Virus genome (UHGV): UHGV-0335561
Reading direction: 5' to 3' (one strand)
Origin: a virus
DNA length: 60,270 nt
Positions 7,364 to 23,927 of the stretch are shown one piece after another. The notes beneath the pieces are model-generated. The model had not been told where the DNA came from and did no database searches. It saw only the letters and a list, made by a program, of their open reading frames with translations. Within the stretch, counting starts at the first letter, position 1, and every line of letters begins with the position of its first letter. Made by a program: the position numbers and the translations under genes.

Positions 7364-7786
7364 ATGTTCCTGAAAACCGAATCATTTGAATATAACGGCG
7401 TGACCGTCACGCTTTCTGAACTGTCAGCCCTGCAGCGTATTGAGCATCTTGCCCTGATGAAACGGCAGGCAGAACCGGCGGGATCCGACAGCAACCGGCA
7501 GGTTACTGTGGAAGACGTCATCAGAACCGGCGCGTTTCTGGTGGCGATGTCCCTGTGGCATAACCATCCGAAGAAGACGCAGATGCCGTCCATGAATGAA
7601 GCCGTTAAACAGATTGAGCAGGAAGTGCTTACCACCTGGCCCACAGAGGCAATTTCTCATGCTGAAAACGTGGTGTACCGGCTGTCCGGTATGTATGAGT
7701 TTGTGGTGAATAATGCCCCCGAACAGGCAGAGGACGCCGGGCCTGCAGAGCCTGTTTCTGCGGGAAAGTGTTCGACGGTGAGCTGA
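7364..7786 (+). CDS. G: tail assembly chaperone G
   Basis: 140 aa, lambda gpG. Confidence 0.95.
   Translation: MFLKTESFEYNGVTVTLSELSALQRIEHLALMKRQAEPAGSDSNRQVTVEDVIRTGAFLVAMSLWHNHPKKTQMPSMNEAVKQIEQEVLTTWPTEAISHAENVVYRLSGMYEFVVNNAPEQAEDAGPAEPVSAGKCSTVS
7762..7768 (+). promoter_or_regulatory. -1 programmed ribosomal frameshift slippery heptamer GGGAAAG (G to G-T)
   Basis: G GGA AAG in the G/T overlap, identical to the lambda site. Confidence 0.85.
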
Positions 7787-8202
7787 GTTTTGCCCTGAAA
7801 CTGGCGCGTGAGATGGGGCGACCCGACTGGCGTGCCATGCTTGCCGGGATGTCATCCACGGAGTATGCCGACTGGCACCGCTTTTACAGTACCCATTATT
7901 TTCATGATGTTCTGCTGGATATGCACTTTTCCGGGCTGACGTACACCGTGCTCAGCCTGTTTTTCAGCGATCCGGATATGCATCCGCTGGATTTCAGTCT
8001 GCTGAACCGGCGCGAGGCTGACGAAGAGCCTGAAGATGATGTGCTGATGCAGAAAGCGGCAGGGCTTGCCGGAGGTGTCCGCTTTGGCCCGGACGGGAAT
8101 GAAGTTATCCCCGCTTCCCCGGATGTGGCGGACATGACGGAGGATGACGTAATGCTGATGACAGTATCAGAAGGGATCGCAGGAGGAGTCCGGTATGGCT
8201 GA
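7768..8202 (+). CDS. T: tail assembly chaperone T segment (made as a G-T fusion by -1 frameshift)
   Basis: -1 frame relative to G; MFDGELSFALKLAREMGRPDWRAML..., lambda gpT. Confidence 0.9.
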   Translation: MFDGELSFALKLAREMGRPDWRAMLAGMSSTEYADWHRFYSTHYFHDVLLDMHFSGLTYTVLSLFFSDPDMHPLDFSLLNRREADEEPEDDVLMQKAAGLAGGVRFGPDGNEVIPASPDVADMTEDDVMLMTVSEGIAGGVRYG

Positions 8203-10756
8203 ACCGGTAGGCGATCTGGTCGTTGATTTGAGTCTGGATGCGGCCAGATTTGACGAGCAGATGGCCAGAGTCAGGCGTCATTTTTCCGGTACGGAAAGTG
8301 ATGCGAAAAAAACAGCGGCAGTCGTTGAACAGTCGCTGAGCCGACAGGCGCTGGCTGCACAGAAAGCGGGGATTTCCGTCGGGCAGTATAAAGCCGCCAT
8401 GCGTATGCTGCCTGCACAGTTCACCGACGTGGCCACGCAGCTTGCAGGCGGGCAAAGTCCGTGGCTGATCCTGCTGCAACAGGGGGGGCAGGTGAAGGAC
8501 TCCTTCGGCGGGATGATCCCCATGTTCAGGGGGCTTGCCGGTGCGATCACCCTGCCGATGGTGGGGGCCACCTCGCTGGCGGTGGCGACCGGTGCGCTGG
8601 CGTATGCCTGGTATCAGGGCAACTCAACCCTGTCCGATTTCAACAAAACGCTGGTCCTTTCCGGCAATCAGGCGGGTCTGACGGCAGATCGTATGCTGGT
8701 CCTGTCCAGAGCCGGGCAGGCGGCAGGGCTGACGTTTAACCAGACCAGCGAGTCACTCAGCGCACTGGTTAAGGCGGGGGTAAGCGGTGAGGCTCAGATT
8801 GCGTCCATCAGCCAGAGTGTGGCGCGTTTCTCCTCTGCATCCGGCGTGGAGGTGGACAAGGTCGCTGAAGCCTTCGGGAAGCTGACCACAGACCCGACGT
8901 CGGGGCTGACGGCGATGGCACGCCAGTTCCATAACGTGACGGCGGAGCAGATTGCGTATGTTGCTCAGTTGCAGCGTTCCGGCGATGAAGCCGGGGCATT
9001 GCAGGCGGCGAACGAGGCCGCAACGAAAGGGTTTGATGACCAGACCCGCCGCCTGAAAGAGAACATGGGCACGCTGGAGACCTGGGCAGACAGGACTGCG
9101 CGGGCATTCAAATCCATGTGGGATGCGGTGCTGGATATTGGTCGTCCTGATACCGCGCAGGAGATGCTGATTAAGGCAGAGGCTGCGTTTAAGAAAGCAG
9201 ACGACATCTGGAATCTGCGCAAGGATGATTATTTTGTTAACGATGAAGCGCGGGCGCGTTACTGGGATGATCGTGAAAAGGCCCGTCTTGCGCTTGAAGC
9301 CGCCCGAAAGAAGGCTGAACAGCAGAGTCAACAGGACAAAAATGCGCAGCAGCAGAGCGATACCGAAGCGTCACGGCTGAAATATACCGAAGAGGCGCAG
9401 AAGGCTTACGAACGGCTGCAGACGCCGCTGGAGAAATATGCCGCCCGTCAGGAAGAACTGAATAAGGCCCTGAAAGACGGAAAAATCCTGCAGGCAGATT
9501 ACAACACGCTGATGGCGGCAGCGAAAAAGGACTATGAAACGACACTGAAAAAGCCGAAGCAGTCCGGCGTGAAGGTGTCTGCGGGCGATCGTCAGGAAGA
9601 CAGTGCTCATGCTGCCCTGCTGACGCTTCAGGCTGAACTCCGGACGCTGGAGAAGCATGCCGGAGCAAATGAGAAAATCAGCCAGCAGCGCCGGGATTTG
9701 TGGAAGGCGGAGAGTCAGTTCGCGGTACTGGAGGAGGCGGCGCAACGTCGCCAGCTGTCTGTACAGGAGAAATCCCTGCTGGCGCATAAAGATGAGACGC
9801 TGGAGTACAAACGCCAGCTGGCTGCACTTGGCGACAAGGTTACGTATCAGGAGCGCCTGAACGCGCTGGCGCAGCAGGCGGATAAATTCGCACAGCAGCA
9901 ACGGGCAAAACGGGCCGCCATTGATGCGAAAAGCCGGGGGCTGACTGACCGGCAGGCAGAACGGGAAGCCACGGAACAGCGCCTGAAGGAACAGTATGGC
10001 GATAATCCGCTGGCGCTGAATAACGTCATGTCAGAGCAGAAAAAGACCTGGGCGGCTGAAGACCAGCTTCGCGGGAACTGGATGGCAGGCCTGAAGTCCG
10101 GCTGGAGTGAGTGGGAAGAGAGCGCCACGGACAGTATGTCGCAGGTAAAAAGTGCAGCCACGCAGACCTTTGATGGTATTGCACAGAATATGGCGGCGAT
10201 GCTGACCGGCAGTGAGCAGAACTGGCGCAGCTTCACCCGTTCCGTGCTGTCCATGATGACAGAAATTCTGCTTAAGCAGGCAATGGTGGGGATTGTCGGG
10301 AGTATCGGCAGCGCCATTGGCGGGGCTGTTGGTGGCGGCGCATCCGCGTCAGGCGGTACAGCCATTCAGGCCGCTGCGGCGAAATTCCATTTTGCAACCG
10401 GAGGATTTACGGGAACCGGCGGCAAATATGAGCCAGCGGGGATTGTTCACCGTGGTGAGTTTGTCTTCACGAAGGAGGCAACCAGCCGGATTGGCGTGGG
10501 GAATCTTTACCGGCTGATGCGCGGCTATGCCACCGGCGGTTATGTCGGTACACCGGGCAGCATGGCAGACAGCCGGTCGCAGGCGTCCGGGACGTTTGAG
10601 CAGAATAACCATGTGGTGATTAACAACGACGGCACGAACGGGCAGATAGGTCCGGCTGCTCTGAAGGCGGTGTATGACATGGCCCGCAAGGGTGCCCGTG
10701 ATGAAATTCAGACACAGATGCGTGATGGTGGCCTGTTCTCCGGAGGTGGACGATGA
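8195..10756 (+). CDS. H: tail tape measure protein H
   Basis: 853 aa, lambda gpH. Confidence 0.97.
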   Translation: MAEPVGDLVVDLSLDAARFDEQMARVRRHFSGTESDAKKTAAVVEQSLSRQALAAQKAGISVGQYKAAMRMLPAQFTDVATQLAGGQSPWLILLQQGGQVKDSFGGMIPMFRGLAGAITLPMVGATSLAVATGALAYAWYQGNSTLSDFNKTLVLSGNQAGLTADRMLVLSRAGQAAGLTFNQTSESLSALVKAGVSGEAQIASISQSVARFSSASGVEVDKVAEAFGKLTTDPTSGLTAMARQFHNVTAEQIAYVAQLQRSGDEAGALQAANEAATKGFDDQTRRLKENMGTLETWADRTARAFKSMWDAVLDIGRPDTAQEMLIKAEAAFKKADDIWNLRKDDYFVNDEARARYWDDREKARLALEAARKKAEQQSQQDKNAQQQSDTEASRLKYTEEAQKAYERLQTPLEKYAARQEELNKALKDGKILQADYNTLMAAAKKDYETTLKKPKQSGVKVSAGDRQEDSAHAALLTLQAELRTLEKHAGANEKISQQRRDLWKAESQFAVLEEAAQRRQLSVQEKSLLAHKDETLEYKRQLAALGDKVTYQERLNALAQQADKFAQQQRAKRAAIDAKSRGLTDRQAEREATEQRLKEQYGDNPLALNNVMSEQKKTWAAEDQLRGNWMAGLKSGWSEWEESATDSMSQVKSAATQTFDGIAQNMAAMLTGSEQNWRSFTRSVLSMMTEILLKQAMVGIVGSIGSAIGGAVGGGASASGGTAIQAAAAKFHFATGGFTGTGGKYEPAGIVHRGEFVFTKEATSRIGVGNLYRLMRGYATGGYVGTPGSMADSRSQASGTFEQNNHVVINNDGTNGQIGPAALKAVYDMARKGARDEIQTQMRDGGLFSGGGR

Positions 10757-11082
10757 AGACCTTCCGCTGGAAAGTGAAACCCGGTATGGATGTGGCTTCG
10801 GTCCCTTCTGTAAGAAAGGTGCGCTTTGGTGATGGCTATTCTCAGCGAGCGCCTGCCGGGCTGAATGCCAACCTGAAAACGTACAGCGTGACGCTTTCTG
10901 TCCCCCGTGAGGAGGCCACGGTACTGGAGTCGTTTCTGGAAGAGCACGGGGGCTGGAAATCCTTTCTGTGGACGCCGCCTTATGAGTGGCAGCAGATAAA
11001 GGTGACCTGCGCAAAATGGTCGTCGCGGGTCAGTATGCTGCGTGTTGAGTTCAGCGCAGAGTTTGAACAGGTGGTGAACTGA
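10753..11082 (+). CDS. M: tail tip assembly protein M
   Basis: 109 aa, lambda gpM. Confidence 0.95.
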   Translation: MKTFRWKVKPGMDVASVPSVRKVRFGDGYSQRAPAGLNANLKTYSVTLSVPREEATVLESFLEEHGGWKSFLWTPPYEWQQIKVTCAKWSSRVSMLRVEFSAEFEQVVN

Positions 11083-11780
11083 TGCAGGATATCCGGCAGG
11101 AAACACTGAATGAATGCACCCGTGCGGAGCAGTCGGCCAGCGTGGTGCTCTGGGAAATCGACCTGACAGAGGTCGGTGGAGAACGTTATTTTTTCTGTAA
11201 TGAGCAGAACGAAAAAGGTGAGCCGGTCACCTGGCAGGGGCGACAGTATCAGCCGTATCCCATTCAGGGGAGCGGTTTTGAACTGAATGGCAAAGGCACC
11301 AGTACGCGCCCCACGCTGACGGTTTCTAACCTGTACGGTATGGTCACCGGGATGGCGGAAGATCTGCAGAGTCTGGTCGGCGGAACGGTGGTCCGGCGTA
11401 AGGTTTACGCCCGTTTTCTGGATGCGGTGAACTTCGTCAACGGAAACAGTTATGCCGATCCGGAGCAGGAGGTGATCAGCCGCTGGCGCATTGAGCAGTG
11501 CAGCGAACTGAGCGCGGTGAGTGCCTCCTTTGTACTGTCCACGCCGACGGAAACGGATGGCGCTGTTTTTCCGGGACGTATCATGCTGGCCAACACCTGC
11601 ACCTGGACCTATCGCGGTGACGAGTGCGGTTATAGCGGTCCGGCTGTCGCGGATGAATATGACCAGCCAACGTCCGATATCACGAAGGATAAATGCAGCA
11701 AATGCCTGAGCGGTTGTAAGTTCCGCAATAACGTCGGCAACTTTGGCGGCTTCCTTTCCATTAACAAACTTTCGCAGTAA
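11082..11780 (+). CDS. L: tail tip protein L
   Basis: 232 aa, lambda gpL; Cys-rich C-terminus. Confidence 0.95.
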   Translation: MQDIRQETLNECTRAEQSASVVLWEIDLTEVGGERYFFCNEQNEKGEPVTWQGRQYQPYPIQGSGFELNGKGTSTRPTLTVSNLYGMVTGMAEDLQSLVGGTVVRRKVYARFLDAVNFVNGNSYADPEQEVISRWRIEQCSELSAVSASFVLSTPTETDGAVFPGRIMLANTCTWTYRGDECGYSGPAVADEYDQPTSDITKDKCSKCLSGCKFRNNVGNFGGFLSINKLSQ

Positions 11781-11784
11781 TCCC

Positions 11785-12528
11785 ATGACACAGACAGAAT
11801 CAGCGATTCTGGCGCACGCCCGGCGATGTGCGCCAGCGGAGTCGTGTGGCTTCGTGGTGAGAACGCCGAAGGGGGAAAGATATTTTCCCTGCGTGAATAT
11901 CTCCGGTGAGCCGGAGGCGTATTTCCGGATGTCGCCGGAGGACTGGCTGCGGGCAGAGATGCAGGGTGAGATTGTGGCGCTGGTCCACAGCCACCCCGGT
12001 GGTCTGCCCTGGCTGAGTGAGGCTGACAGGCGGCTGCAGGTGCAGAGCGATTTGCCGTGGTGGCTGGTCTGCCGGGGTGAGATTCATAAATTCCGCTGTG
12101 TGCCGCATCTTACCGGGCGGTGCTTTGAGCACGGGGTGACGGACTGTTACACGCTGTTCCGGGATGCTTATCATCTGGCGGGGATTGAGATGCCGGATTT
12201 TCATCGCGGGGATGACTGGTGGCGTCACGGTCAGAATCTCTATCTGGATAATCTGGAGGCCACAGGGCTGTATCAGGTGCCGTTGTCATCAGCACAACCG
12301 GGCGATGTGCTGCTGTGCTGTTTTGGTTCATCGGTGCCGAATCATGCCGCCATTTACTGTGGTGATGGCGAGCTGCTGCACCATATTCCTGAACAACTGA
12401 GCAAACGAGAGAGGTATACCGACAAATGGCAGCGACGCACACACTCCCTCTGGCGTCACCGGGCATGGCGCGCATCTGCCTTTACGGGGATTTACAACGA
12501 TTTGGCCGCCGCATCGACCTTCGTGTGA
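11785..12528 (+). CDS. K: tail tip assembly protein K (JAB/MPN and NlpC/P60-like)
   Basis: MTQTESAILAHARRCAPAESCGF... HSHPGG motif, lambda gpK. Confidence 0.93.
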   Translation: MTQTESAILAHARRCAPAESCGFVVRTPKGERYFPCVNISGEPEAYFRMSPEDWLRAEMQGEIVALVHSHPGGLPWLSEADRRLQVQSDLPWWLVCRGEIHKFRCVPHLTGRCFEHGVTDCYTLFRDAYHLAGIEMPDFHRGDDWWRHGQNLYLDNLEATGLYQVPLSSAQPGDVLLCCFGSSVPNHAAIYCGDGELLHHIPEQLSKRERYTDKWQRRTHSLWRHRAWRASAFTGIYNDLAAASTFV

Positions 12529-13067
12529 AAACGGGGGCTGAAGCCATCCGGGCGCTGGCCACACAGCTCCCGGCGTTTCGTCAGAAACTGAGCGACGGCT
12601 GGTATCAGGTACGGATTGCCGGGCGTGATACAGGTGAAACGGAATTATCAGCCCGTCTTAATGAACCGCTGGCAAATGGTGCTGTGATCCATATCGTGCC
12701 GCGTCTGGCAGGAGCCAAAAGTGGCGGTGTGTTTCAGGCTGTGCTGGGGGCGGCTGTTATGGCGGTTGCTATATGGATGCCGGGGGTAGGAATTATGGCG
12801 AGTAATCTGCTGTTTTCTCTCGGTGCCAGTATGACGCTTGGCGGTGTTGCACAGATGCTGGCCCCTAAACCCAGAACCCCCCGCACACAGACAACGGATA
12901 ACGGCAAACAGAACACCTATTTTTCTTCACTGGATAATATGGTTGCCCAGGGCAATGTTCTGCCCGTTCTGTACGGTGAAATGCGCGTGGGATCACGTGT
13001 GGTATCTCAGGAGATCAGCACAGCAGATGAAGGTGATGGTGGTCAGGTTGTGGTGATTGGTCGCTGA
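12426..13067 (+). CDS. I: tail tip assembly protein I
   Basis: 213 aa; lambda gpI with a roughly 10-aa internal difference. Confidence 0.93.
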   Translation: MAATHTLPLASPGMARICLYGDLQRFGRRIDLRVKTGAEAIRALATQLPAFRQKLSDGWYQVRIAGRDTGETELSARLNEPLANGAVIHIVPRLAGAKSGGVFQAVLGAAVMAVAIWMPGVGIMASNLLFSLGASMTLGGVAQMLAPKPRTPRTQTTDNGKQNTYFSSLDNMVAQGNVLPVLYGEMRVGSRVVSQEISTADEGDGGQVVVIGR

Positions 13068-13127: not shown

Positions 13128-15795
13128 ATGGGTAAAGGCAGCAGTAAGGGGCATACCCCGCGCGAAGCGAAGGACAACCTGAAGTCCACGCAGCTGCTGA
13201 GTGTGATCGATGCCATCAGCGAAGGGCCGGTTGAAGGTCCGGTGGATGGATTAAAAAGCGTGCTGCTGAACAGTACGCCGGTGCTGGACAGTGAGGGGAA
13301 TACCAATATATCCGGCGTCACGGTGGTGTTCCGGGCCGGTGAGCAGGAGCAGTCACCGCCGGAGGGATTTGAATCCTCCGGCTCCGAGACGGTGCTGGGT
13401 ACGGAAGTGAAATATGACACGCCGATCACCCGGACCATCACGTCGGCAAACATCGACCGTCTGCGCTTTACCTTCGGTGTACAGGCACTGGTGGAAACCA
13501 CCTCAAAGGGAGACAGGAATCCGTCGGAAGTTCGCCTGCTGGTTCAGATACAGCGTAACGGTGGCTGGGTGACGGAAAAAGACATCACCATTAAGGGCAA
13601 AACCACCTCGCAGTATCTGGCCTCGGTGGTGGTGGATAACCTGCCGCCGCGCCCGTTTAATATCCGGATGCGCAGGATGACGCCGGACAGCACCACAGAC
13701 CAGCTGCTGAACAAAACGCTCTGGTCGTCATACACCGAAATCATCGATGTGAAACAGTGCTACCCGAACACGGCACTGGTTGGCGTGCAGGTGGACTCGG
13801 AGCAGTTCGGCAGCCAGCAGGTGAGCCGTAATTATCATCTTCGCGGGCGCATTCTGCAGGTGCCGTCGAACTATAACCCGCAGACGCGGCAATACAGCGG
13901 TATCTGGGACGGAACGTTAAAACCGGCATACAGCAACAACATGGCCTGGTGTCTGTGGGATATGCTGACCCATCCGCGCTACGGCATGGGGAAACGTCTT
14001 GGTGCGGCGGATGTGGATAAATGGGCGCTGTATGTCATCGGCCAGTACTGCGACCAGTCGGTGCCGGACGGCTTTGGCGGCACGGAGCCGCGCATTACCT
14101 GTAATGCGTACCTGACCACACAGCGCAAGGCGTGGGATGTGCTCAGTGATTTCTGCTCGGCGATGCGCTGTATGCCGGTATGGAACGGGCAGACGCTGAC
14201 GTTCGTGCAGGACCGACCATCAGATAAGGTGTGGACCTATAACCGCAGTAATGTGGTGATGCCGGATGATGGCGCGCCGTTCCGCTACAGCTTCAGCGCC
14301 CTGAAGGACCGCCATAATGCCGTTGAGGTGAACTGGATTGACCCGGATAACGGCTGGGAGACGGCGACAGAGCTCGTGGAGGATACGCAGGCCATTGCCC
14401 GTTACGGCCGTAACGTCACGAAGATGGATGCCTTTGGCTGTACCAGCCGGGGGCAGGCACACCGCGCCGGGCTGTGGCTGATTAAAACGGAGCTGCTGGA
14501 AACGCAGACCGTGGACTTCAGCGTGGGTGCTGAAGGGCTTCGCCATGTACCGGGGGATGTCATTGAAATCTGCGATGATGACTATGCCGGTATCAGCACC
14601 GGTGGTCGTGTGCTGGCGGTGAACAGCCAGACCCGGACGCTGACGCTCGACCGTGAAATCACGCTGCCATCCTCCGGTACCACGCTGATAAGCCTGGTTG
14701 ACGGAAGTGGCAATCCGGTCAGCGTGGAGGTTCAGTCCGTCACCGACGGCGTGAAGGTGAAAGTGAGCCGTGTTCCTGACGGTGTTGCTGAATACAGCGT
14801 ATGGGGGCTGAAGCTGCCGACGCTGCGCCAGCGACTGTTCCGCTGCGTGAGTATCCGTGAAAACGACGACGGCACGTATGCCATCACCGCCGTGCAGCAT
14901 GTGCCGGAAAAAGAGACCATCGTGGATAACGGGGCGCACTTTGACGGCGAACAGAGTGGCACGGTGAATGGTGTCACGCCGCCCGCGGTGCAGCACCTGA
15001 CCGCAGAAGTCACCGCAGACAGCGGGGAATATCAGGTGCTGGCGCGATGGGACACACCGAAGGTGGTGAAGGGGGTGAGCTTTATGCTTCGCCTGACCGT
15101 GGCAGCGGATGACGGCAGTGAGCGGCTGGTCAGCACGGCCAGGACGACGGAAACCACATACCGCTTCAGGCAACTGGCGCTGGGGAACTACAGGCTGACA
15201 GTCCGGGCGGTAAATGCGTGGGGGCAGCAGGGGGATCCGGCGTCGGTATCGTTCCGGATTGCCGCACCGGCAGCGCCATCGCGGATTGAGCTGACGCCGG
15301 GCTATTTTCAGATAACCGCAACGCCACATCTTGCCGTTTATGACCCGACGGTACAGTTTGAGTTCTGGTTCTCGGAAAAGCGGATTGCGGATATCAGGCA
15401 GGTTGAAACCGCAGCCCGCTATCTTGGCTCGGCGCTGTACTGGATAGCTGCCAGTATCAATATCAAACCGGGCCATGATTATTATTTTTATATCCGCAGT
15501 GTGAATACTGTTGGCAAATCGGCATTCGTGGAGGCTGTCGGTCGGGCGAGCGATGATGCGGAAGGTTACCTGGATTTTTTCAAAGGAGAAATCGGGAAAA
15601 CACATCTGGCCCAGGAGCTGTGGACGCAGATTGATAACGGTCAGCTTGCGCCGGACCTGGCTGAAATCAGGACGTCCATTACGAATGTCAGCAATGAAAT
15701 CACGCAGACCGTCAATAAAAAACTGGAAAATCAGAGTGCGGCAATCCAGCAGATACAGAAAGTTCAGGTTGATACAAATAATAACCTGAACAGCG
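13128..15795 (+). pseudogene. J: tail tip/host-specificity protein J, truncated (C-terminal receptor-binding part missing)
   Basis: Lambda gpJ-like to about residue 890 (...[15 protein letters not shown]), then the frame runs into the reverse complement of the second J; the track ORF 13128-16154 is read-through. Confidence 0.88.
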
Positions 15796-17978
15796 GTTAT
15801 CTGAAAATAGCCCGGCGTCAGCTCAATCCGCGACGGTGCTGCCGGTGCGGCAATCCGGAAGGTGGTGGTGGCAGGTTCACCCTGCTGGCCATAGCTGTTT
15901 ATCGCCCGCACCGTCAGGGTGTATTCCCCGAGCGGCAGGCCGCTGAAACGGTGCTCCGTGTCTGCGGTGATGGCGGTGGTCACCAGTCTGGCATCCGTTC
16001 CCTTACCACTGGTCAGGCGCAGACTGAAGCGCACACCCTTCACCACCCGCGGCGTGTCCCATTTCGCCTGCGCCAGATACTGGCCGTCAGCTGCGCTCAC
16101 CTCCACCGTCAGGTGCTGCACTGCCGGTGGGATGACGCTGTTCAGGGAACCTGACTGCGGCTCAAAGCGGGCACCGTTATCCACGATGGCTTCTTTTTCC
16201 GGTACGTGCTGCACCGCCGTGATGGCAAAGGTGCCGTCCGTGTTTTCCCGGATGGAGACACAGCGGAACAGGCGACGGCGCAGTGACGGCAGGGAGAGTC
16301 CCCACACCCCGTATGTCTCCACACCATCAGGCAGGGTACTGACCTGTATCCGGTCCGGCGCGGGGTGTGCGGTGATGTCCACACTCACCGGCTTACCGCT
16401 GCCGTTAATCAGGTTCACCGCCGATGTACCTGTCTCCGGCAGGGTAACCTCACGGTCCAGCGTCAGGGTGCGGGTGGCAGCATCAATGGACAGGACACGT
16501 CCGCCGGTCAGGGTCCCGGCATAGTCATTATCACAGATTTCAATAATGTCACCGGGTGTGTGCCGCAGCCCCTGAGACCCGAGCGTGAAATCCACCGTCT
16601 GCGTTTCCAGCAGTTCGGTCTTTATCACCCACAGTCCGGCACGGTGGGCCTGACCGCGGCTGGTACAGCCGAACGCGTCCATCTTCAGCAGGTTGCGTCC
16701 GTAGCGCAGTATGGCTTCCGGGTCTTCCACCAGTTCCGTGGAGGTCTGCCAGCCGTTCTGCGGGTCGGTGTAATTCACCTCCACCGCCGTGTGCCGGTCC
16801 TTCAGGGCACTGAAGCTGTAGCGGAATCCCACGCCGTTATCATCCACCACCACATCGCTGTTGGTGTACGGCCACACCACATCCGACGGGCGGTCCTGAA
16901 CGAACGTCAGCGTCTGACCGTTCCATACCGGCATACAGCGCATCGCAGAGCAGAAATCACTGAGAACGTCCCACGCCTTACGCTGTTGTGCCAGGTACGC
17001 ATTAAAGGTCATCCGCGGCTCGGTCCCCCCGAAACCATCCGGGACCGTCTGGTCGCAGTACTGCCCGATGGCATACAGCGCCCACTTGTCCACATCCGCC
17101 GCCCCCAGACGTTTTCCCATGCCGTAGCGCGGGTGAGTCAGCATGTCCCACAGACACCAGGCCGGGTTGTTGCTGTATGCCGGTTTCAGACTGCCGTCCC
17201 AGATACCACTATACGTGCGTTTTTCCGGGTCATAGTTTGACGGCACCTGGATGATGCGACCGCGGATATGGTAGTTCACCGTCATCTGCTGGCCGCCGAA
17301 CTGCTCCGCATCCACCTGCAGCCCCACAATGGCCGTGTTCGGGTAGCACTGTTTCACATCGATGATTTCGGTGTATGACGACCACAGCGTCTTATTCTGC
17401 AGCTGGTCCGTGGTGCTGTCCGCCGTCTCCCTGACCATCCGGATGTTAAAGGGCCGGGGAGGCAGATTATCCAGAATCACCGAGGCCAGGAACTGTGAGG
17501 TGGTCTTGCCGTTAATGGTGACGTCCTTTTCTGTCACCCAGTTACCGTTACGCTGTAACTGAATCAGCAGGCGGACGGATGCCGGGTTACGGTCACCCTT
17601 TGAGGTGGTCTCCACCAGTGACTGCACCCCGAAGGTAACCCGCAGGCGGTCAATGTTCGCGGACGTAATGGTGCGCGTCACCGGTTTTGCCTTCGTCACT
17701 TCCACGCCCAGTCCGGTTTCAGCTCCGGAGGACTCAAAGCCTTCCGGTGGTGTCTGCTCCTGCTCCCCGGCGCGCCAGACCGCCGTCACACCGTGTATCA
17801 CGGGATTGCCGTCCGTGTCCGTCAGTGGGGTTTTGTTCACCAGAATACTCTGCAGTCCCTTCACCGGACCTTCTATCGGTCCCTCACCAATCGCATCAAT
17901 CACGCTCATCATCTGCGTGGATTTGAGATTATCCTTCGCCTCACGAGGCGTGTGTGCCTTACCGCCACCTTTTCCCAT
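15796..17978 (-). pseudogene. J: second tail tip/host-specificity protein J, truncated after about residue 728
   Basis: [26 protein letters not shown]..., roughly 75-80% identical to the first J by eye; ends at ...[13 protein letters not shown], then reverse complement of the first J. Confidence 0.88.
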
Positions 17979-18320: not shown

Positions 18321-19001
18321 TTATCCCTGTCGCCCGATAACCACGACCGTTCCGCCCCCGCCTTCATCACGGGTGCTGATGTCCTGGGATATACGGCGGG
18401 AGCCAACCAGCATTTCCCCGTAAGGCACCGGCATCGGGTTCCCCTGGGCAATCATGTTATCCAGCGAGGAAAAGTACGTGTTCTGTCTGCCGTTATCCGT
18501 TGCGCGGTAATCCGGTGTTTTTGCCTTCGGGGCCAGCATCTGGGCCACACCGCCCAGAATCATGCTGGCTCCAAGTGAAAACAGCATCGTGGTGGCAGAA
18601 AAACCACCGGCTGCCAGGGCTGAACCCCATAACGCCATTGATGCCCCGGCAGTGAAGAAAGAGCCCACGATGGCTGCCGCCCCCAGCACAATCTGCAGTC
18701 CACCCTTTCCGGCCCCGGCCAGTCGCGGCACAATATGGATGACCGTTCCCTCACCCAGCTGTTCGTGAAGACGGGCGTACACCGCCTCCGGTGCCGTGTC
18801 ATAACCGGCAATACGTATCTGGTACCAGCCTTCGTTCATCTGACGGCGAAAGCCCGGCACCTGTAACGACAGCGCCCGGATGGCTTCCGCTGCCGTGTTC
18901 ACATACAGGCTGAGGCGGCGGCCAAATCGTTGTAAATCCCCGTGAAGGCAGATGCGTGCCAGTGGCGGTGACGCCAGACAGAATGCGTTCGTCGTTGCCA
19001 T
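18321..19001 (-). CDS. I: tail tip assembly protein I
   Basis: 226 aa ...ARICLHGDLQRFGRR..., lambda gpI homolog. Confidence 0.9.
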   Translation of the reverse strand: MATTNAFCLASPPLARICLHGDLQRFGRRLSLYVNTAAEAIRALSLQVPGFRRQMNEGWYQIRIAGYDTAPEAVYARLHEQLGEGTVIHIVPRLAGAGKGGLQIVLGAAAIVGSFFTAGASMALWGSALAAGGFSATTMLFSLGASMILGGVAQMLAPKAKTPDYRATDNGRQNTYFSSLDNMIAQGNPMPVPYGEMLVGSRRISQDISTRDEGGGGTVVVIGRQG

Positions 19002-19642
19002 TTTTCGGAATACCTCTCCCGTTTACTCAGTTGTTCAGGCAGATGGTGAAGCAGCTCACCGTTGCCGCAGTAAATGGCGGCATGGTTCGGTACCGAAGCA
19101 CCAAAGCAGCACAGCAGAATATCGCCCGCCTGTGCAGAGGACAGGGGCACCCGGTAAAAGCCGGTGACCGCCATATTGTCCAGGTAAAGGTTCTGACCGT
19201 TGCGCCACCAGTCATCCTCGCGATGAAAATCCGGCATTTCAGTCCCCGCCAGATGATAAGCATCCCGGAACAGCGTGTAACAGTCCGTCACCCCGTGCTC
19301 AAAGCGCCGTCCTGTCAGATGTGGCACACAGCGGAATTTGTGAATGTCACCCCGGCAGACCAGCCACCAGGGCAGTGCGCTTTTTATCTGCAGCCGCCGG
19401 TCAGCCTCGCTCAGCCAGGGCAGCCCACCGGGATGACTGTGGACCAGTGCCACAATCTCCCCCTGCATCTCTGCCCGCAGCCAGTCTTCCGGTGCGATAC
19501 GAAAATACGCCTCCGGCTCTGCAGAAATATTCACACAAGGGATATACCACTCCCCCTCCGACGTGCTTATCACGAAGCCGCACGACTCCGCAGGCGCACA
19601 CCGCCGGGCATGCGCCAGAATCGCTGATTCAGTCTGTGTCAT
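18899..19642 (-). CDS. K: tail tip assembly protein K
   Basis: MTQTESAILAHARRCAPAESCGFVISTSEG... HSHPGG; start set at the internal Met after the L stop. Confidence 0.9.
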   Translation of the reverse strand: MTQTESAILAHARRCAPAESCGFVISTSEGEWYIPCVNISAEPEAYFRIAPEDWLRAEMQGEIVALVHSHPGGLPWLSEADRRLQIKSALPWWLVCRGDIHKFRCVPHLTGRRFEHGVTDCYTLFRDAYHLAGTEMPDFHREDDWWRNGQNLYLDNMAVTGFYRVPLSSAQAGDILLCCFGASVPNHAAIYCGNGELLHHLPEQLSKRERYSEKWQRRTHSVWRHRHWHASAFTGIYNDLAAASACM

Positions 19643-19652
19643 AAACCGGGAT

Positions 19653-20351
19653 TTACTGCGAAAGTTTATTAATGGAAAGGAAACCGCCAAAATTGCCGAC
19701 ATTCCTGCGCAGTTCACACCCGCGCATGCACTTGCTGCATCTGTCCTTACGGATATCCGTGGTGGGGTTGTCGAACTCATCCGCCACCGCAGGACCGTTA
19801 TACCCGCATTCATCTCCCCGGTAATCCCACATACAGGTGTTCGCCAGCATGATGCGACCGGGAAACAGCGCCCCATCCGTCTCGGTCGGTGTAGCCAGCA
19901 CAAACGAGGCCGTCATGGCTGTCAGCTGCGACATCTGCTCCACCACCCAGCGGTCACTCAGCTCCTGCTCCGGGTCCGCCTCCGGATTGCCCGCAACGAA
20001 ATTCACCGCATCCAGAAAACGGGCATACACCCGGCGGCGGACCACCGTGGCCCCCACCAGACTCTGCAGGTCTTCCGCCATCCCGGTGACCAGACCGAAC
20101 AGATTGGACACCGTCAGCGACGGTCTGGCACTGCTGCCCTTCCCGCTCATCTCAAAACCGCTGCCGTCAATCGGGTATGCCTGATATTGCCGCCCCTGCC
20201 AGGTGACCGGCTCCCCTTTTTCATTCAGCTCATTACAGAAAAAATACCGCTCACCGCCCTGTACCGTCAGGTCGATTTCCCAGAGTACCACCCGCGGTGA
20301 CTGCTCTGACTTAACCGACTCGTTCAGACTTTCTTCGCGAATATCCTGCAT
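19653..20351 (-). CDS. L: tail tip protein L
   Basis: 232 aa MQDIREESLNESVKSEQSPRVVLWEIDLTVQGGERYFF... Confidence 0.93.
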   Translation of the reverse strand: MQDIREESLNESVKSEQSPRVVLWEIDLTVQGGERYFFCNELNEKGEPVTWQGRQYQAYPIDGSGFEMSGKGSSARPSLTVSNLFGLVTGMAEDLQSLVGATVVRRRVYARFLDAVNFVAGNPEADPEQELSDRWVVEQMSQLTAMTASFVLATPTETDGALFPGRIMLANTCMWDYRGDECGYNGPAVADEFDNPTTDIRKDRCSKCMRGCELRRNVGNFGGFLSINKLSQ

Positions 20352-20692
20352 CAGTTCACCACCTGCTCAATCGTACAACTGAAATCACTGTGCCTGGCGT
20401 TATCTGTGACGCTCCACTCCCGGCACACCACCCTCACCGTCAGGTTATGTTTCGGCGGTCGCCACAAAAAGGCACGGTAACCACCATGCCACGATAAAAA
20501 TTCATCCAGCCAGCGCCGGGTTGGTTCATCCGTCACCCGGAACACCGCCTGAAACGTCTTCAGTCTGGCATTAAGTCCCGTCGGTCGGCGCTGTTCATAA
20601 CCGTCACCAAACCGAACCCTCACCACCGACGGTTTCTCACTCACCTGCATCCCTTCACGCGGGACCAGATGCAGCGTTTTTATCTCAGCCAC
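20351..20692 (-). CDS. M: tail tip assembly protein M
   Basis: 113 aa, lambda gpM-like. Confidence 0.9.
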   Translation of the reverse strand: MAEIKTLHLVPREGMQVSEKPSVVRVRFGDGYEQRRPTGLNARLKTFQAVFRVTDEPTRRWLDEFLSWHGGYRAFLWRPPKHNLTVRVVCREWSVTDNARHSDFSCTIEQVVN

Positions 20693-23600
20693 TCAGCATT
20701 CCTCCGTCACGTCGCATGGACAGCATCACCGCCTGCACCCGCTGGTCAATCAGCTGCACAAGACTGCCTGCCGCCTCCGCCCCTATCTGTCCGTTAGCCC
20801 CGTCATTCTGAATGGCGATGTGGTAGACCGGGGAATACACCAGACCGGCACTGCCGTTCATACTGCCCACCGCGCGTACGCCCAGCGAGCCATCCGCCGC
20901 CCGGGTCAGGGGCATAATGGCTTCAGGTCCGGCTTCCCCCATCAGCCCGGCCCCTTTTGCAAACGCAAAGTACGTGGGCGTGTCCACAATGCTGTTGCTG
21001 TACGCACTCAGGTTTGCCGAGGTATACACGCCGCCTTTTGCATTGGCCACCGCACCGCCCAGCCAGTCACCAATGCTGCCAATAAATCCTCCCGCACCGG
21101 ACATACCGTTTGCCGCCGTCTTAATTCCGTTGACAATCGCAGCATTCATAAGAACTTTTGAGATTTCCTGCAGTACGGATGAGGCCCAGTTGCGCCATTC
21201 CACTTTGTTTCCGTTCAGCATCTCCGTGATGTTATTCACCATCCCTGAGATACCCTCCGTCGCAAGCTGTGCTGCCTGTGAGGCGTAATCGGATGCATTG
21301 TCCACCCAGTTACTGAGCCCCTCCTGCAAGCCTTTCTGCCAGTCCGCACGCTGCGCATCCGATTCGGCATAAAAGGCTGCCTGGTCCTTAAGGCGTTCGC
21401 TCAGATACTGCGCGTTCTGTGCCCGTGCCTGTCTGTAAAAATCCTCACTGATATCCCCGGTCTGATACTGAGACTGAAGGTCCGCATCCTTCTGGCGGAA
21501 GCTGTCACGGATCTGCTGCAACTCCCGCATGCGTTCCCTGGCTCGTTCTCCCTGCCCGTATCCCAGCAGTTCGGCTTCATTTGATGCACGCGCAGCCACA
21601 TTATCATTCTTCAGGGTCTCTTCCCGGGATCGCAACTGTTCCCGGATTTTTTGCTGGTCAATCAGGGCCGCGTTACGCAGCAGTTCCTGCTTCTGCATCT
21701 CCGTCAGGGTTTTCAGTTCGCCCTGCGCAGTCTGGTACTTCAGCTTCGCCAGCTCTGTATTCTGACCCGCCAGTGCCAGTTGCTCTTTCTGCTGCTTCAG
21801 TAGCCGGGAAAAACTGTCTTCCGCTTTTTCCGTCTCTGATTTTCCACCCCGGGATTTAGGTTTGTTCGCCTCGTTATTACGCCAGGCTTCCAGAGCATTA
21901 CTGATATAACGCTGTCTCGCCTCCTGATACGAATCCCCCACAAAACCAAGGTCATCCGCCGCATACCCCAGCCGGGCACGCTCTTTTTCCTCCCCCTTCA
22001 GTCGGGACAGGGCCAGCTCACGTTCTGTTTTTGTCAGGGCGCTCTGCTGTTTATCATCCAGGGTGGCCTGCGGCAGCCGTAACGGTACATTCACCAGTCC
22101 CTGACGCTGCTGAAGCAGTTCATTCCCCAGCCCCAGCAGACGGTTGAATTCCGTATGCTGACCGTTCATAACCAGCATGGACTGGTACACCTTATTCTGC
22201 TCTGCCGCCTGCTGACGAATTAACGCCACACGACGGTCTTCCAGCCCGGCAAGCACATCCTGAATGGACTGCGCTTTTTCCTGCATCTGTGCCAGACGGG
22301 ACTGCTCAACGGCAAGCTGCTCTGTTGCCTGAGAAAGCCCTTCCGTCACGGTCTTCACCGATGTCAGATGGTTTATCATGAATCCGTCACCGGTTGTCCA
22401 GCCAGGGTTAGCCAGAACATACTGATATCCAGCGATTTTTTCCTGCAGGGATTTCACCCGGCTGGCCTGTTCATCAATCAGCCGGTTCTGCTCTGCCAGC
22501 GCCGCCCGTGTTCGTCCTTCATTATCTGAGGCTTCAGGCAAAGACATTGACGGCGTTTTATGCGCGATTTCATCTATCGTCAGTGCATACTGGCGCGCTG
22601 ACTCCCTGGCCTGCTCCTGATTCTGGTACAGCGTATACCATGCTGCTGCCCCCAGCATCACCAGTCCGGGTACGCCACCAACCAGTCCCAACGCACCAGT
22701 CATCAGACGTGAGCCCACCGCCGTTGTACTGTTCAGCTCATTCTGGGCTGCGGTTCTGGCAGCAATATTTCTGTTCAGGCGTTCCTGTGTGGCCGCCAGA
22801 CGGGCTTCTGCAGCAATCTGCATCTCCGTCCCGCGGGCTGCCGCCACAGCCTGCTGTGCACGGTACACGGCTGCCCTTGCCCGCGCCGTGGCAATCTGCG
22901 TCCCCCTGAGCTGTGCTTCCGCCAGTGCCACTTCATTACGTGCTGCCGTCACAAGTCCTGCCGTGGCAGACACCGCTCCGGAGGCCATATTGCCAAAGTA
23001 CCGGGCAACCCCGACGGCAACCAGCGCCCCCGCGGCTGTTGCCACATTATCAATATTACCGGCAACACCGTTCAGCACGCCGGAGAGCGTTTTCGTCGCT
23101 CCGCTGGCTTCATTCGCGCCACCCACCCAGGCCATAAAGGCGTTTTCCACCTTTGTGATCCCGTCAGAGACCGTTTCCGGCATGGCGGCATATTCATCAC
23201 GCAATACCCCCAGCTGGCTGATTAACGCAGGAACGACTTTATCCGCCGTCAGTTTGCCGTCGTCCGCCATCGCCTTAAGGTCTTTACGGGCCACGCCCAT
23301 ACCCGCAGCCAGTGCACGTACGATCCGGTCTCCGCTTTCATTGACCGAATTAAATTCCTCACCGCGTAACACACCCTGTGCCAGCGCCTGGCTGAACTGG
23401 GTGATCACCGAGCCCGCCTCTGCCGTACTGGCACCGGAGATTTTCAGCCCCGTGGAAATGGCCTCCGTCACCTTCAGCACATCATCAGCACTGTAACCAT
23501 ATTCACGCATTGAGGCTGCCGAGCGGGCAAACAGGGCCGCATTATCTGAAAATGCCGTGCCCGTCCGCTGGCTGATATCCATCAGCACTTTCTGTGATGA

Positions 23601-23927
23601 CGAAAATTCATCGGATGACTGCGACGCCTGTTTCAGTCGGGCATTCACGGAACTCCATTCATCGGCCAGAGAAATCAGGTGTCCGGTGGCAAAGGCACCT
23701 GCAAATGCCCCCGCCGTTCCGGCAGCTGAAGCGCGGATTTCCGTCAACTGGCTGTTCAGCTCAGCCAGGGCGCGTCGCTGCACCCGGGCGACTGCGGCAG
23801 CCTGACGCCCGCCATTCTGCAGGGTCCGGTAATATTCACTGCCCATGCGGGAAGCCCGCTGGATCTCCGACTGGAATGACTGCGAATTTGCCGAAATTTT
23901 GATAATCAGTTCACGTAACGTCGCCAT
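20685..23927 (-). CDS. H: tail tape measure protein
   Basis: 1080 aa, coiled-coil-rich with glycine-rich C-terminus; position before M. Confidence 0.92.
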   Translation of the reverse strand: MATLRELIIKISANSQSFQSEIQRASRMGSEYYRTLQNGGRQAAAVARVQRRALAELNSQLTEIRASAAGTAGAFAGAFATGHLISLADEWSSVNARLKQASQSSDEFSSSQKVLMDISQRTGTAFSDNAALFARSAASMREYGYSADDVLKVTEAISTGLKISGASTAEAGSVITQFSQALAQGVLRGEEFNSVNESGDRIVRALAAGMGVARKDLKAMADDGKLTADKVVPALISQLGVLRDEYAAMPETVSDGITKVENAFMAWVGGANEASGATKTLSGVLNGVAGNIDNVATAAGALVAVGVARYFGNMASGAVSATAGLVTAARNEVALAEAQLRGTQIATARARAAVYRAQQAVAAARGTEMQIAAEARLAATQERLNRNIAARTAAQNELNSTTAVGSRLMTGALGLVGGVPGLVMLGAAAWYTLYQNQEQARESARQYALTIDEIAHKTPSMSLPEASDNEGRTRAALAEQNRLIDEQASRVKSLQEKIAGYQYVLANPGWTTGDGFMINHLTSVKTVTEGLSQATEQLAVEQSRLAQMQEKAQSIQDVLAGLEDRRVALIRQQAAEQNKVYQSMLVMNGQHTEFNRLLGLGNELLQQRQGLVNVPLRLPQATLDDKQQSALTKTERELALSRLKGEEKERARLGYAADDLGFVGDSYQEARQRYISNALEAWRNNEANKPKSRGGKSETEKAEDSFSRLLKQQKEQLALAGQNTELAKLKYQTAQGELKTLTEMQKQELLRNAALIDQQKIREQLRSREETLKNDNVAARASNEAELLGYGQGERARERMRELQQIRDSFRQKDADLQSQYQTGDISEDFYRQARAQNAQYLSERLKDQAAFYAESDAQRADWQKGLQEGLSNWVDNASDYASQAAQLATEGISGMVNNITEMLNGNKVEWRNWASSVLQEISKVLMNAAIVNGIKTAANGMSGAGGFIGSIGDWLGGAVANAKGGVYTSANLSAYSNSIVDTPTYFAFAKGAGLMGEAGPEAIMPLTRAADGSLGVRAVGSMNGSAGLVYSPVYHIAIQNDGANGQIGAEAAGSLVQLIDQRVQAVMLSMRRDGGMLSG

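What the first reader, a model, noticed from the sequence alone, without database searches (positions are those of the whole stretch)
13128..17978. Two lambdoid J genes joined tail-to-tail: a roughly 2.2-kb imperfect inverted repeat with both receptor-binding C-termini missing
The + strand J (13128 onward) and the - strand J (17978 downward) are paralogs that converge and meet near 15795. The minus copy stops exactly after the conserved ...[13 protein letters not shown] motif and the plus copy about 160 aa later. Each ORF then reads into the antisense of the other, so neither encodes a complete tail fibre. A long near-palindrome like this is unusual and unstable in E. coli; it points to an illegitimate recombination or inversion between two prophages, or to an assembly chimera.
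Basis: seen in the sequence. Interest (0 to 1): 0.55.

Follow-up and report, generated by a model that had tools for sequence, protein, structure and literature searches.

The report
Fold-back join between two prophage J genes
Two truncated phage tail-tip (J) genes really do face each other here, but the join is a one-off strand-switch junction seen in no other public sequence, and it is more likely a sequencing or assembly chimera than a biological feature.

Summary
J of prophage A (+, from 13128) and J of prophage B (-, from 17978) converge at 15792|15793, and both lack the tail-tip and receptor-binding domains.

Window 215-15325 is 100% prophage A. Within a 47-nt block identical in both genes (15279-15325) the sequence switches to J_B type. 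The next 473 nt (15320-15792) are J_B's own downstream sequence in forward orientation. After a 2-nt GC overlap, 1-3 nt past a 9-bp hairpin, the sequence continues as the reverse complement of J_B from nt 2186. So the join is a fold-back with a 473-nt loop and a 41-nt perfect inverted repeat, not a simple A/B breakpoint.

Both flanks are ordinary ST131-type prophage DNA. The junction is absent from 5,426 complete E. coli genomes, the phage, plasmid, IMG/VR and JGI collections, and the gene-position index. The window's first 214 nt hold two more inverted joins with flanking deletions.

Best reading (about 0.6): a fold-back chimeric molecule or read, plus a path crossing in the 47-nt block. Rival (about 0.3): a real replication template switch between inverted J paralogs. 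There is no invertase switch. Interest is low.

The parts
1..107 (+). Fragment of the prophage A large-terminase gene in forward orientation. It is the first piece of a zig-zag at the window start.
   Evidence: 100% match to L001 10737-10843. No complete genome holds the arrangement of window 1-420.
108..214 (-). Inverted 107-nt terminase fragment flanked by 137-nt and 128-nt deletions. Both joins are blunt (0-nt overlap).
   Evidence: 100% match to the reverse complement of L001 10981-11087; collinearity resumes at 215 = L001 11216.
215..13067 (+). Prophage A (sit/icd-locus lambdoid prophage of ST131) head and tail genes: portal 489-2090, tape measure 8195-10756, M 10753-11082, L 11082-11780, K 11785-12528, I 12465-13067.
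   Evidence: 100% identical and collinear with NZ_CP023844.1 (L001) over 215-15325.
13128..15278 (+). J_A-specific 5' part of the plus-strand J (aa 1 to about 717): FNIII-A, Phage-tail_3 and Ig_J domains.
   Evidence: 100% J_A; J_B differs heavily here. Pfam domains.
15279..15325 (+). Block M: 47 nt identical in the window, J_A and J_B, encoding ...[15 protein letters not shown]. The J_A-type to J_B-type switch lies inside it.
   Evidence: Three-way comparison. The first J_A mismatch is at 15326.
15279..15319 (+). Left copy of the 41-nt perfect inverted repeat that flanks the loop.
   Evidence: perfect inverted repeat 15279-15319 / 15793-15833.
15320..15792 (+). The 473-nt 'loop': J_B-type sequence (J_B nt 2187-2659) in forward orientation, encoding most of the Ig_J_second domain.
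   Evidence: 100% to J_B (reverse strand of L002, 20068->19526); 39 mismatches to J_A, all within 15326-15761.
15762..15791 (+). Native hairpin GTTCAGGTT-12 nt-AACCTGAAC, ending 1-3 nt before the breakpoint.
   Evidence: dG -7.6 kcal/mol, z = -4.1, 0 of 200 shuffles fold as well. Only 0.2% of window positions lie within 3 nt of such a hairpin.
15792..15794 (.). Fold-back junction. J_B-type nt 2659-2661 is joined to the reverse complement of J_B nt 2186, with a 2-nt GC overlap (15793-15794).
   Evidence: Absent from every collection searched.
15793..17978 (-). J_B 5' part (aa 1-728): FNIII-A, Phage-tail_3 and Ig_J domains. Its first 41 nt are the right copy of the inverted repeat.
   Evidence: 100% to many ST131 genomes. 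100.000% to L023 over 15793-33927, and L023 then continues into an intact J_B. Pfam domains.
18321..23927 (-). Prophage B (trp/ompW-locus lambdoid prophage) tail genes: I 18321-18902, K 18899-19642, L 19653-20351, M 20351-20692, tape measure 20685-23927.
   Evidence: Annotation of L002 transferred through the alignment.
37652..39532 (-). Hybrid SASA/DUF6645 esterase gene. This is the second, homologous junction, joining prophage B late genes to the right half of the P2-like prophage. It sets the chromosomal background of the J join.
   Evidence: Overlap of the L002 and L003 alignments at 37670-39326. The exact 626-aa product is on at least 24 public contigs in the same gene order. No complete genome holds this junction.

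Best explanation
The tail-to-tail J pair is a chimeric join that was probably created outside the cell and then fixed by the assembler.

Shown:
- The window is made of blocks that are each native to ST131-type E. coli. These are prophage A up to the 47-nt block M, 473 nt of J_B-type sequence in forward orientation, and then prophage B read backwards from J_B nt 2186.
- The only non-homologous step is a strand-switch (fold-back) join with a GC overlap, 1-3 nt past a stable 9-bp hairpin.
- The two joined points are 473 nt apart on opposite strands of J_B-type sequence.
- Two more inverted joins with flanking deletions sit in the first 214 nt of the window.

Inferred:
- In a library with fold-back or template-switch chimeras, a 3' end that had copied J_B to nt 2659 came loose at the hairpin. 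Possible sources are displacement amplification, ligation-based long-read preparation, or fragmentation artefacts.
- That end re-primed, or was ligated, 473 nt upstream on the complementary strand.
- The resulting molecule is a J_B hairpin. Its stem starts inside block M, which J_A shares exactly, so the assembler could leave the hairpin on the prophage A side instead of re-entering J_B. That produced a long contig with different arms.

On this reading neither J gene is truncated in the real genome.
For: 1. Uniqueness. The junction is in 0 of 5,426 complete E. coli genomes, 0 phage and 0 plasmid records, and 0 IMG/VR and 0 JGI contigs. Neither chimeric ORF product is on record in the 153-billion-gene-position index. 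The flanks, in contrast, are common. The prophage B tape measure is listed in 8,826 blocks of that index, and the shown loci that are long enough carry J_B sequence through to its C-terminal domain, most as one intact 1157-aa gene.
2. The closest relative, L023, is 100.000% identical over 18,135 nt up to base 15793 exactly, then continues into an intact J_B.
3. Geometry. The joined points lie 473 nt apart on opposite strands of the same J_B-type sequence, with a 2-nt overlap. This is the signature of local fold-back chimeras. In displacement amplification, 85% of chimeras are inverted with an intervening deletion, most join points lie <10 kb apart, 76.8% have >=2 nt of complementarity, and 495 chimeras were found in 10.9 Mb, about one per 22 kb (PMC1855051). 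Fold-back artefacts make up about 0.55-0.6% of ONT gDNA reads, some with extra sequence between the arms (PMC12870357). Short-read libraries also give chimeric reads at inverted repeats (PMC10908179).
4. The window begins with two further inverted joins, 107 nt apart, with flanking deletions. These are also absent from all complete genomes. Such a feature in the first 214 nt is what a contig tip built on a chimeric read looks like.
5. The J_B-type tract begins inside the 47-nt block shared by both genes, which is where a graph path can cross between paralogs.
Against: - No reads, coverage or assembly metadata are available, so nothing here directly shows an artefact.
- The two joins at the window start have 0-nt overlap, the minority class for displacement-amplification chimeras (PMC1855051).
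- A path crossing in a 47-nt block needs a small k or overlap length. Modern assemblers with k >= 55 would not cross without read support.
- A full-length J with the same A-to-B switch at the protein level is real in other assemblies, on k=141 and k=127 contigs. So that part of the structure may be genuine rather than an assembler path.
- An interior chimeric join normally loses to the true path unless coverage is low.
Confidence: 0.6

Rival explanations
1. The join is a real structural variant made in one replication-repair event between two inverted J paralogs.

Background: the chromosome already carries the inversion between the two esterase paralogs (junction 2). In that order J_A and J_B are inverted repeats flanking a block of about 351 kb.

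Proposed event:
- A broken or stalled 3' end in J_A invades J_B at the 47-nt identical block.
- It copies 473 nt of J_B.
- It stalls at the hairpin.
- It switches by GC microhomology onto the displaced strand at the base of the D-loop, and copies back into prophage B.

The result is a tandem-duplication-type junction with a small inverted insert. Intact J_A and J_B would survive at the outer ends.
For: - One event explains three facts together. These are the homology-driven switch in block M, the short J_B-type tract, and the acceptor lying inside the region that a D-loop would make single-stranded.
- The breakpoint abuts a strong hairpin.
- Junction 2 is real: its exact hybrid protein and gene order occur on at least 24 public contigs, including a 213-kb isolate contig.
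- The two J genes do recombine in nature. Both reciprocal full-length hybrids exist (P0121 and P0138) in the predicted contexts: tail_A-hybrid-lom_B, and tail_B-hybrid-stf_A-sitDCBA.
- The pattern of one junction inside inverted repeats plus a second by microhomology is the pattern described for DUP-TRP/INV-DUP rearrangements, attributed to iterative template switches (PMC11293582).
- Hairpin-mediated inverted chromosome duplications have been observed in E. coli (PMC3315005).
Against: - The junction occurs in no other public sequence.
- A duplication of about 351 kb is unstable without selection and would have to dominate the sequenced culture.
- It does not explain the two extra inverted joins in the first 214 nt.
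- Copy number cannot be tested here.
Confidence: 0.3
2. The join is a simple illegitimate inversion of about 185 kb between two same-orientation prophages of an EC958-like chromosome, with breakpoints in J_A and J_B.
For: In reference ST131 chromosomes J_A and J_B lie on the same strand about 185 kb apart. An inversion with ends in both genes would therefore give a tail-to-tail join.
Against: - The 473 nt before the join are J_B type, not J_A type, so the breakpoint is not in J_A sequence.
- The same window carries junction 2 at about 38.3 kb. That junction already inverts prophage A relative to the late genes of prophage B, so the join has head-to-tail topology, not inversion topology.
- E. 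coli has no efficient end-joining pathway (my own knowledge, not tested here).
Confidence: 0.05
3. The structure is a programmed invertible tail-fibre switch. The 473-nt segment between the 41-nt inverted repeats would flip to fuse alternative J 5' parts to a shared segment, as in the Mu G, P1 C or e14 P segments.
For: - A short segment is flanked by perfect 41-nt inverted repeats inside tail genes.
- ST131 prophages Phi1, Phi2 and Phi4 do carry invertase-driven tail-fibre switches (PMC4134206).
Against: - No match to the 26-bp crossover-site pattern (modelled on the EC958 Phi1/Phi4 sites) anywhere in the window, with up to 2 mismatches allowed.
- No ORF other than the two J reading frames and their antisense ORFs lies between 13067 and 18321.
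- Either orientation of the segment leaves both products without the tail-tip and receptor-binding domains (and reading of the sequence).
- The arrangement is unique to this window.
Confidence: 0.01

Closest known systems
Inverted (fold-back) chimeras of displacement amplification and of sequencing-library preparation (Lasken & Stockwell 2007, PMC1855051; Heinz et al. 2026, PMC12870357; Chen et al. 2024, PMC10908179)
   Same: The two segments are joined in inverted orientation. They lie a few hundred nt apart in the source sequence. The overlap is 2 nt. Sequence is retained between the arms. Several such joins occur within about 16 kb.
   Different: The arms differ (prophage A on the left, prophage B on the right), which needs an extra crossing in the 47-nt shared block. 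Two of the three joins have no overlap at all. No read data are available to show low support.
DUP-TRP/INV-DUP and related rearrangements formed by iterative template switches or break-induced replication (PMC11293582)
   Same: One junction lies inside a pair of inverted homologous repeats and the second is a microhomology join nearby. A short inverted segment sits between two direct copies.
   Different: These were described in human genomic disorders, with repeats of several kb or more. Here the homology used is 47 nt, the organism is E. coli, and copy-number gain is untested.
Palindrome- or hairpin-induced inverted chromosome duplication in E. coli (Darmon et al. 2010, PMC3315005)
   Same: A hairpin sits next to the break and the topology is fold-back.
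   Different: Those events are centred on the palindrome itself and were seen in sbcCD recA mutants. Here the join is 1-3 nt past the hairpin and lands 473 nt upstream, so it is not a snap-back on the hairpin.
Invertase-mediated tail-fibre allele switching in ST131 prophages Phi1, Phi2 and Phi4 (Forde et al. 2014, PMC4134206)
   Same: Tail genes of the same ST131-type prophage set are arranged as mirror images, and spurious or alternative contigs can appear in assemblies.
   Different: That system acts on the side tail-fibre (stf) genes through 26-bp crossover sites and a serine invertase. None of these is present at the J join.
Homologous recombination between prophage paralogs (junction 2 in this window; public J hybrids P0121 and P0138)
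   Same: The J_A-type to J_B-type switch in block M looks like these exchanges, and the same two prophages are involved.
   Different: The join at 15792|15793 is not at homologous positions, has only a 2-nt overlap, and gives truncated genes rather than full-length hybrids.

Membership tests
Lambda-type tail-tip attachment protein J (gpJ / TipJ) | N-terminal and central domains (FNIII-A_GpJ, Phage-tail_3, Ig_J), encoded downstream of tail genes M-L-K-I | tested here: met
   Both copies match these Pfam families at E = 1e-38 to 1e-43. The gene order H-M-L-K-I-J holds on both strands.
Lambda-type tail-tip attachment protein J (gpJ / TipJ) | Complete C-terminal part: Phage_Tail_Tip plus the receptor-binding domain Ig_GpJ_C | tested here: not met
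   Both domains are present in intact J_B (aa 870-998 and 1027-1157) and absent from both window copies. The minus copy also lacks Ig_J_second.
Invertase-driven tail-fibre switch (Mu Gin, P1 Cin, e14 Pin, EC958 Phi1/2/4) | Paired 26-bp crossover sites in inverted orientation | tested here: not met
   0 matches in the window to TTNNNNNANACCNNGGTTTANNNGAA with up to 2 mismatches. Example sites were taken from PMC4134206.
Invertase-driven tail-fibre switch (Mu Gin, P1 Cin, e14 Pin, EC958 Phi1/2/4) | Serine invertase gene next to the invertible segment | tested here: not met
   No ORF other than the J frames and their antisense ORFs lies between 13067 and 18321. No Pfam scan was run on the rest of the window.
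Invertase-driven tail-fibre switch (Mu Gin, P1 Cin, e14 Pin, EC958 Phi1/2/4) | Each orientation yields a complete alternative fibre gene | tested here: not met
   Flipping 15320-15792 would only exchange which J 5' part is fused to the same 158 codons. Both products still lack the tip and receptor-binding domains (sequence reading).
Long DNA palindrome that is a hairpin / SbcCD substrate | Long, nearly identical arms with a short or absent spacer | tested here: not met
   The perfect inverted repeat is only 41 nt, the arms are 73-84% identical, and the spacer is 473 nt. The criteria come from PMC7999016.
Fold-back / inverted chimeric artefact | Segments joined in opposite orientation that lie close together in the true sequence, with little or no overlap | tested here: met
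   J_B nt 2659 is joined to the reverse complement of nt 2186 (473 nt apart, GC overlap). The window start has joins 244 and 235 nt apart.
Fold-back / inverted chimeric artefact | Junction supported by few or no reads relative to the flanking depth | not testable with these tools
   No reads or coverage are available. The only indirect evidence is that the junction is absent from all public collections searched.
Template-switch rearrangement mediated by inverted repeats (DUP-TRP/INV-DUP type) | One junction inside inverted homologous repeats and a second microhomology junction in cis | tested here: met
   The switch lies inside the 47-nt identical block and the GC join lies 473 nt away. The inverted orientation of J_A and J_B follows from junction 2 on the same window.
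Template-switch rearrangement mediated by inverted repeats (DUP-TRP/INV-DUP type) | Copy-number gain of the flanked segment | not testable with these tools
   This needs read depth across the block of about 351 kb.
Homologous-recombination inversion between prophages | Breakpoint at homologous positions within a stretch of identity, giving full-length hybrid genes | tested here: not met
   For the join at 15792|15793 the positions are nt 2659 and nt 2186 on opposite strands, with a 2-nt overlap. The feature is met only for the upstream switch in block M and for junction 2.

The most novel reading that the evidence does not exclude
The join is genuine: a bacterial counterpart of the inverted-repeat-mediated, two-step template-switch rearrangements known from human genomic disorders. 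Two inverted prophage J genes would have captured a broken replication end through only 47 nt of identity. After 473 nt the end would have folded back at a hairpin onto the displaced strand. This would create the junction of a tandem duplication of about 351 kb in a clinical-type E. coli.
Probability: 0.3. Interest if true: 0.4.

Novelty: not a real feature. Interest (0 to 1): 0.15.

Why it matters
If it is an artefact, the value is practical. Multi-copy lambdoid tail genes are a trap for assemblers, and a chimeric contig like this creates false 'truncated J' pseudogenes and a false link between three prophages.

If it is real, it would be a cleanly resolved example in E. coli of homology-plus-microhomology template switching between prophages. 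It would also show that prophage paralogs seed large duplications as well as inversions.

Either way it does not reveal a new kind of genetic system. The side findings are more solid: the same prophage pairs have undergone ordinary homologous exchanges, seen repeatedly in public assemblies but in none of 5,426 complete genomes.

Tried and rejected
- **Chance inverted repeat.** Rejected: the arms are homologous tail modules.
- **Search for the exact junction elsewhere.** Nothing was found in complete E. coli genomes, GTDB representatives (of little value, since there is one genome per species), IMG/VR, JGI metagenomes, phage records, plasmid records, or exact look-ups of both chimeric ORF products.
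- **A third J gene as donor of 15320-15792.** Rejected: the segment is 100% J_B.
- **The A-to-B switch inherited from the public hybrid-J lineage.** Not simply so. L026-L028 still carry J_A-type bases at 15326 and 15344, so their crossover lies further downstream. The IMG/VR locus L015 shares the window's interval, but its J region is a stuttered tiling of overlapping pieces and cannot be trusted.
- **Protein search for a 100% identical hybrid fragment.** Inconclusive, because the database is clustered at 90% identity. This was solved instead by exact look-up of constructed full-length hybrids.
- **Invertase switch.** Rejected.
- **Snap-back on the 9-bp hairpin itself.** Rejected: the native sequence continues 3 nt past the stem, and the acceptor is 473 nt upstream, not at the stem.
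- **Microhomology or hairpins at the two joins of the window start.** None found.
- **Window start as a gene boundary.** No. It falls inside a terminase codon.


Full report
**Observation.** The ORF list shows a + strand ORF at 13128-16154 (1008 aa) and a - strand ORF at 17978-14220 (1252 aa). Both begin as lambda-type J proteins and run into each other's antisense. The inverted-repeat scan finds arms 13128-14615 / 16491-17978 (1488 nt, 79% complementary) and further pieces up to 15319 / 15793. It also finds matching arms for the upstream tail genes, so the inverted homology spans 11046-20387 at 73-84%. These are two convergent H-M-L-K-I-J tail modules, not a chance repeat. Pfam shows that the plus product (aa 1-888) keeps FNIII-A_GpJ, Phage-tail_3, Ig_J and Ig_J_second. 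The minus product (aa 1-728) keeps the first three of these.

**Where the pieces come from.** Megablast against 5,426 complete E. coli genomes finds no genome that holds the junction. The right half, from 15793 on, is 100% identical to ordinary full-length J genes of many ST131-type chromosomes. The left and right arms map to two different prophages of the same chromosomes. In NZ_CP023844.1, prophage A lies next to sitABCD and an icd fragment at about 1.29 Mb, and prophage B lies next to trp/ompW at about 1.478 Mb. Both J genes are on the same strand, about 185 kb apart. Window 37670-60270 maps to a third locus, the P2-like prophage beside serS/dmsA at about 0.97-0.99 Mb in EC958. The window ends on the last base of that prophage's integrase gene.

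**Fine structure of the J join.** Window 215-15325 is 100% identical and collinear with prophage A. All 39 differences from prophage A fall in 15326-15761. That stretch is 100% identical to J_B's own sequence downstream of the GYFQITA motif, in forward orientation. The window, J_A and J_B are identical over 15279-15325, a 47-nt block M, so the switch from A type to B type lies inside it. At 15792|15793 the sequence continues as the reverse complement of J_B from nt 2186, and bases 15793-15794 (GC) align to both sides.

The structure is therefore: J_A 5' part, block M, 473 nt of J_B sense sequence, then the reverse complement of M (41 nt) and of the J_B 5' part. This is a fold-back with a 473-nt loop and a 41-nt perfect inverted repeat. 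The donor breakpoint lies 1-3 nt past a native 9-bp-stem hairpin at 15762-15791 (dG -7.6 kcal/mol, z = -4.1, 0 of 200 shuffles fold as well). Only 0.2% of window positions lie that close to such a hairpin (a post hoc test).

**Other junctions in the window.**
1. The first 214 nt are a zig-zag. Positions 1-107 match L001 10737-10843 in forward orientation. Positions 108-214 match the reverse complement of L001 10981-11087. Normal collinearity resumes at 215 = L001 11216. Both joins are blunt, and no complete genome has this arrangement.
2. At about 38.3 kb, prophage B's SASA esterase gene and the P2-like prophage's DUF6645 gene share about 1.6 kb of homology, and the window crosses from one to the other there. 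No complete genome has this junction. However, the exact 626-aa hybrid product is on at least 24 public contigs with the same gene order. These include a 213-kb isolate contig and MEGAHIT and SPAdes metagenome contigs, and they match the window at 99.99-100%.

Junction 2 is therefore very probably real. Because the two esterase genes are inverted in the reference order, it corresponds to an inversion of about 490 kb. In that order J_A and J_B are inverted repeats flanking a block of about 351 kb. The J join then links the end of that block to its beginning, which is tandem-duplication or circle topology, not a simple inversion. This step is inference from coordinates.

**Do the two J genes recombine in nature?** I built the full-length hybrids in silico and looked them up by exact sequence.
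- J_A5'-M-J_B3' (1159 aa) exists as P0121 / HGY8869343.1. It lies on k=141 and k=127 contigs and on an isolate draft, downstream of prophage A tail genes and upstream of prophage B's lom fragment.
- The reciprocal J_B5'-M-J_A3' (1158 aa) exists as P0138. It lies on a 165-kb contig and isolate drafts, between prophage B tail genes and prophage A's side tail fibre and sitDCBA.

Homologous exchange between these two genes is therefore real and fits a reciprocal inversion, although I did not see both hybrids in one sample. The window's crossover interval (15279-15325) differs from that of L026-L028, which still carry J_A-type bases at 15326 and 15344. It is shared only with L015, an IMG/VR locus whose J region is a stuttered tiling. 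A small metagenome contig (L014) shows yet another A/B/A/B mosaic. All of these loci pass straight through position 15794 into a normal J 3' part. L023 is identical to the window over 18,135 nt and departs from it exactly at 15793, continuing into an intact J_B.

**Interpretation.** The only adjacency that needs a non-homologous event is 15792|15793, plus the two joins at the window start. All three join nearby points on opposite strands with 0-2 nt of overlap (473, 244 and 235 nt apart). This is the signature of local strand-switch chimeras:
- In displacement amplification of E. coli DNA, 85% of chimeras are inverted with an intervening deletion. Most join points lie <10 kb apart, 76.8% show >=2 nt of complementarity, and 495 chimeras were found in 10.9 Mb, about one per 22 kb (PMC1855051).
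- Fold-back artefacts are about 0.55-0.6% of nanopore gDNA reads, sometimes with extra sequence between the arms (PMC12870357).
- Short-read libraries also give chimeric reads at inverted repeats (PMC10908179).

A fold-back in J_B would give a hairpin whose stem starts inside block M. J_A shares M exactly, so an assembler that will not re-enter the same unique sequence can exit on the prophage A side. This would also explain, by ascertainment, why the acceptor lies in M. I rate this reading at about 0.6. Its weak points are that there are no read data, two joins are blunt, a small k or overlap is needed, and an interior chimeric path normally loses to the true path.

**The main rival (about 0.3)** is a real event. 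A 3' end from J_A invades inverted J_B through the 47-nt block and copies 473 nt. It then stalls at the hairpin and switches by GC microhomology onto the displaced strand. This matches the two-junction logic described for DUP-TRP/INV-DUP rearrangements (PMC11293582) and resembles hairpin-driven inverted duplications seen in E. coli (PMC3315005). It explains the J join in one step, but not the zig-zag at the window start or the total absence of the junction elsewhere.

**Lesser rivals.**
- A programmed invertible segment is excluded (0.01). The window has no 26-bp crossover site and no invertase gene between 13067 and 18321. Both orientations would also give truncated products.
- The claim of palindrome instability is overstated. 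Only 41 nt are perfect, the arms are about 79% identical, and the spacer is 473 nt, whereas risk grows with arm identity and falls with spacer length (PMC7999016).

**Verdict.** The sequence feature is real as written, but its anatomy is a fold-back within J_B-type sequence attached to prophage A through a shared 47-nt block. It is most likely a chimeric contig. If genuine, it is a one-off template-switch rearrangement of a known kind. Interest is low.

Noticed in passing
window 1-214: The window opens with a zig-zag in prophage A's large-terminase gene: 107 nt forward, then 107 nt inverted. Deletions of 137 nt and 128 nt flank the inverted piece, and both joins are blunt. The arrangement is absent from all 5,426 complete genomes.
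   Followed up: yes
window 37652-39532 (-), junction near 38.2-38.4 kb: A hybrid SASA/DUF6645 esterase gene joins prophage B late genes to the right half of the P2-like prophage, which implies an inversion of about 490 kb between inverted paralogs. The exact protein and gene order are on at least 24 public draft or metagenome contigs, but in 0 of 5,426 complete genomes.
   Followed up: partly
L026-L028 (P0121) and L029-L034 (P0138): Both reciprocal full-length J hybrids between prophage A and prophage B exist in public assemblies, in the contexts an inversion predicts. Their crossover (between 15345 and 15407 in window terms) differs from the window's (15279-15325). I did not see both hybrids in one sample.
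   Followed up: partly
window 26919-29180 (-), repeat around 27373-27654: The prophage B portal gene varies in length between strains (753 aa here and in several contigs; 807 aa and 861 aa in others) through a repeated stretch. This looks like a variable tandem repeat inside a portal gene.
   Followed up: no
L015 8579-12564 (IMGVR_UViG_651053022_000004): The J region of this IMG/VR provirus is a chain of pieces, each overlapping the previous one by 49-246 nt (one gap of 72 nt instead), as if small contigs were abutted without merging. It is another sign that multi-copy J genes are often misassembled.
   Followed up: partly
window 60270 (end) and 59263-60270: The window ends exactly on the last base of the P2-like prophage integrase gene, while its start falls inside a terminase codon. 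This suggests the window is a predicted provirus cut at a gene edge on one side and at a contig end on the other.
   Followed up: partly
J_B nt 2629-2658, 2738-2772 and 2841-2878 (window 15762-15791 for the first): Perfect-stem hairpins of at least 9 bp cluster within 250 nt of the J coding sequence, just after the second Ig domain: three in J_B, two of them also in J_A. Few others occur elsewhere in the genes. Their role, if any, is unknown.
   Followed up: no
window 49084-51288 (EC958 977258-979462): The P2-like prophage carries genes annotated in EC958 as the plasmid segregation protein ParM and a partitioning/stability protein. These are unusual cargo for an integrated P2-type prophage.
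   Followed up: no
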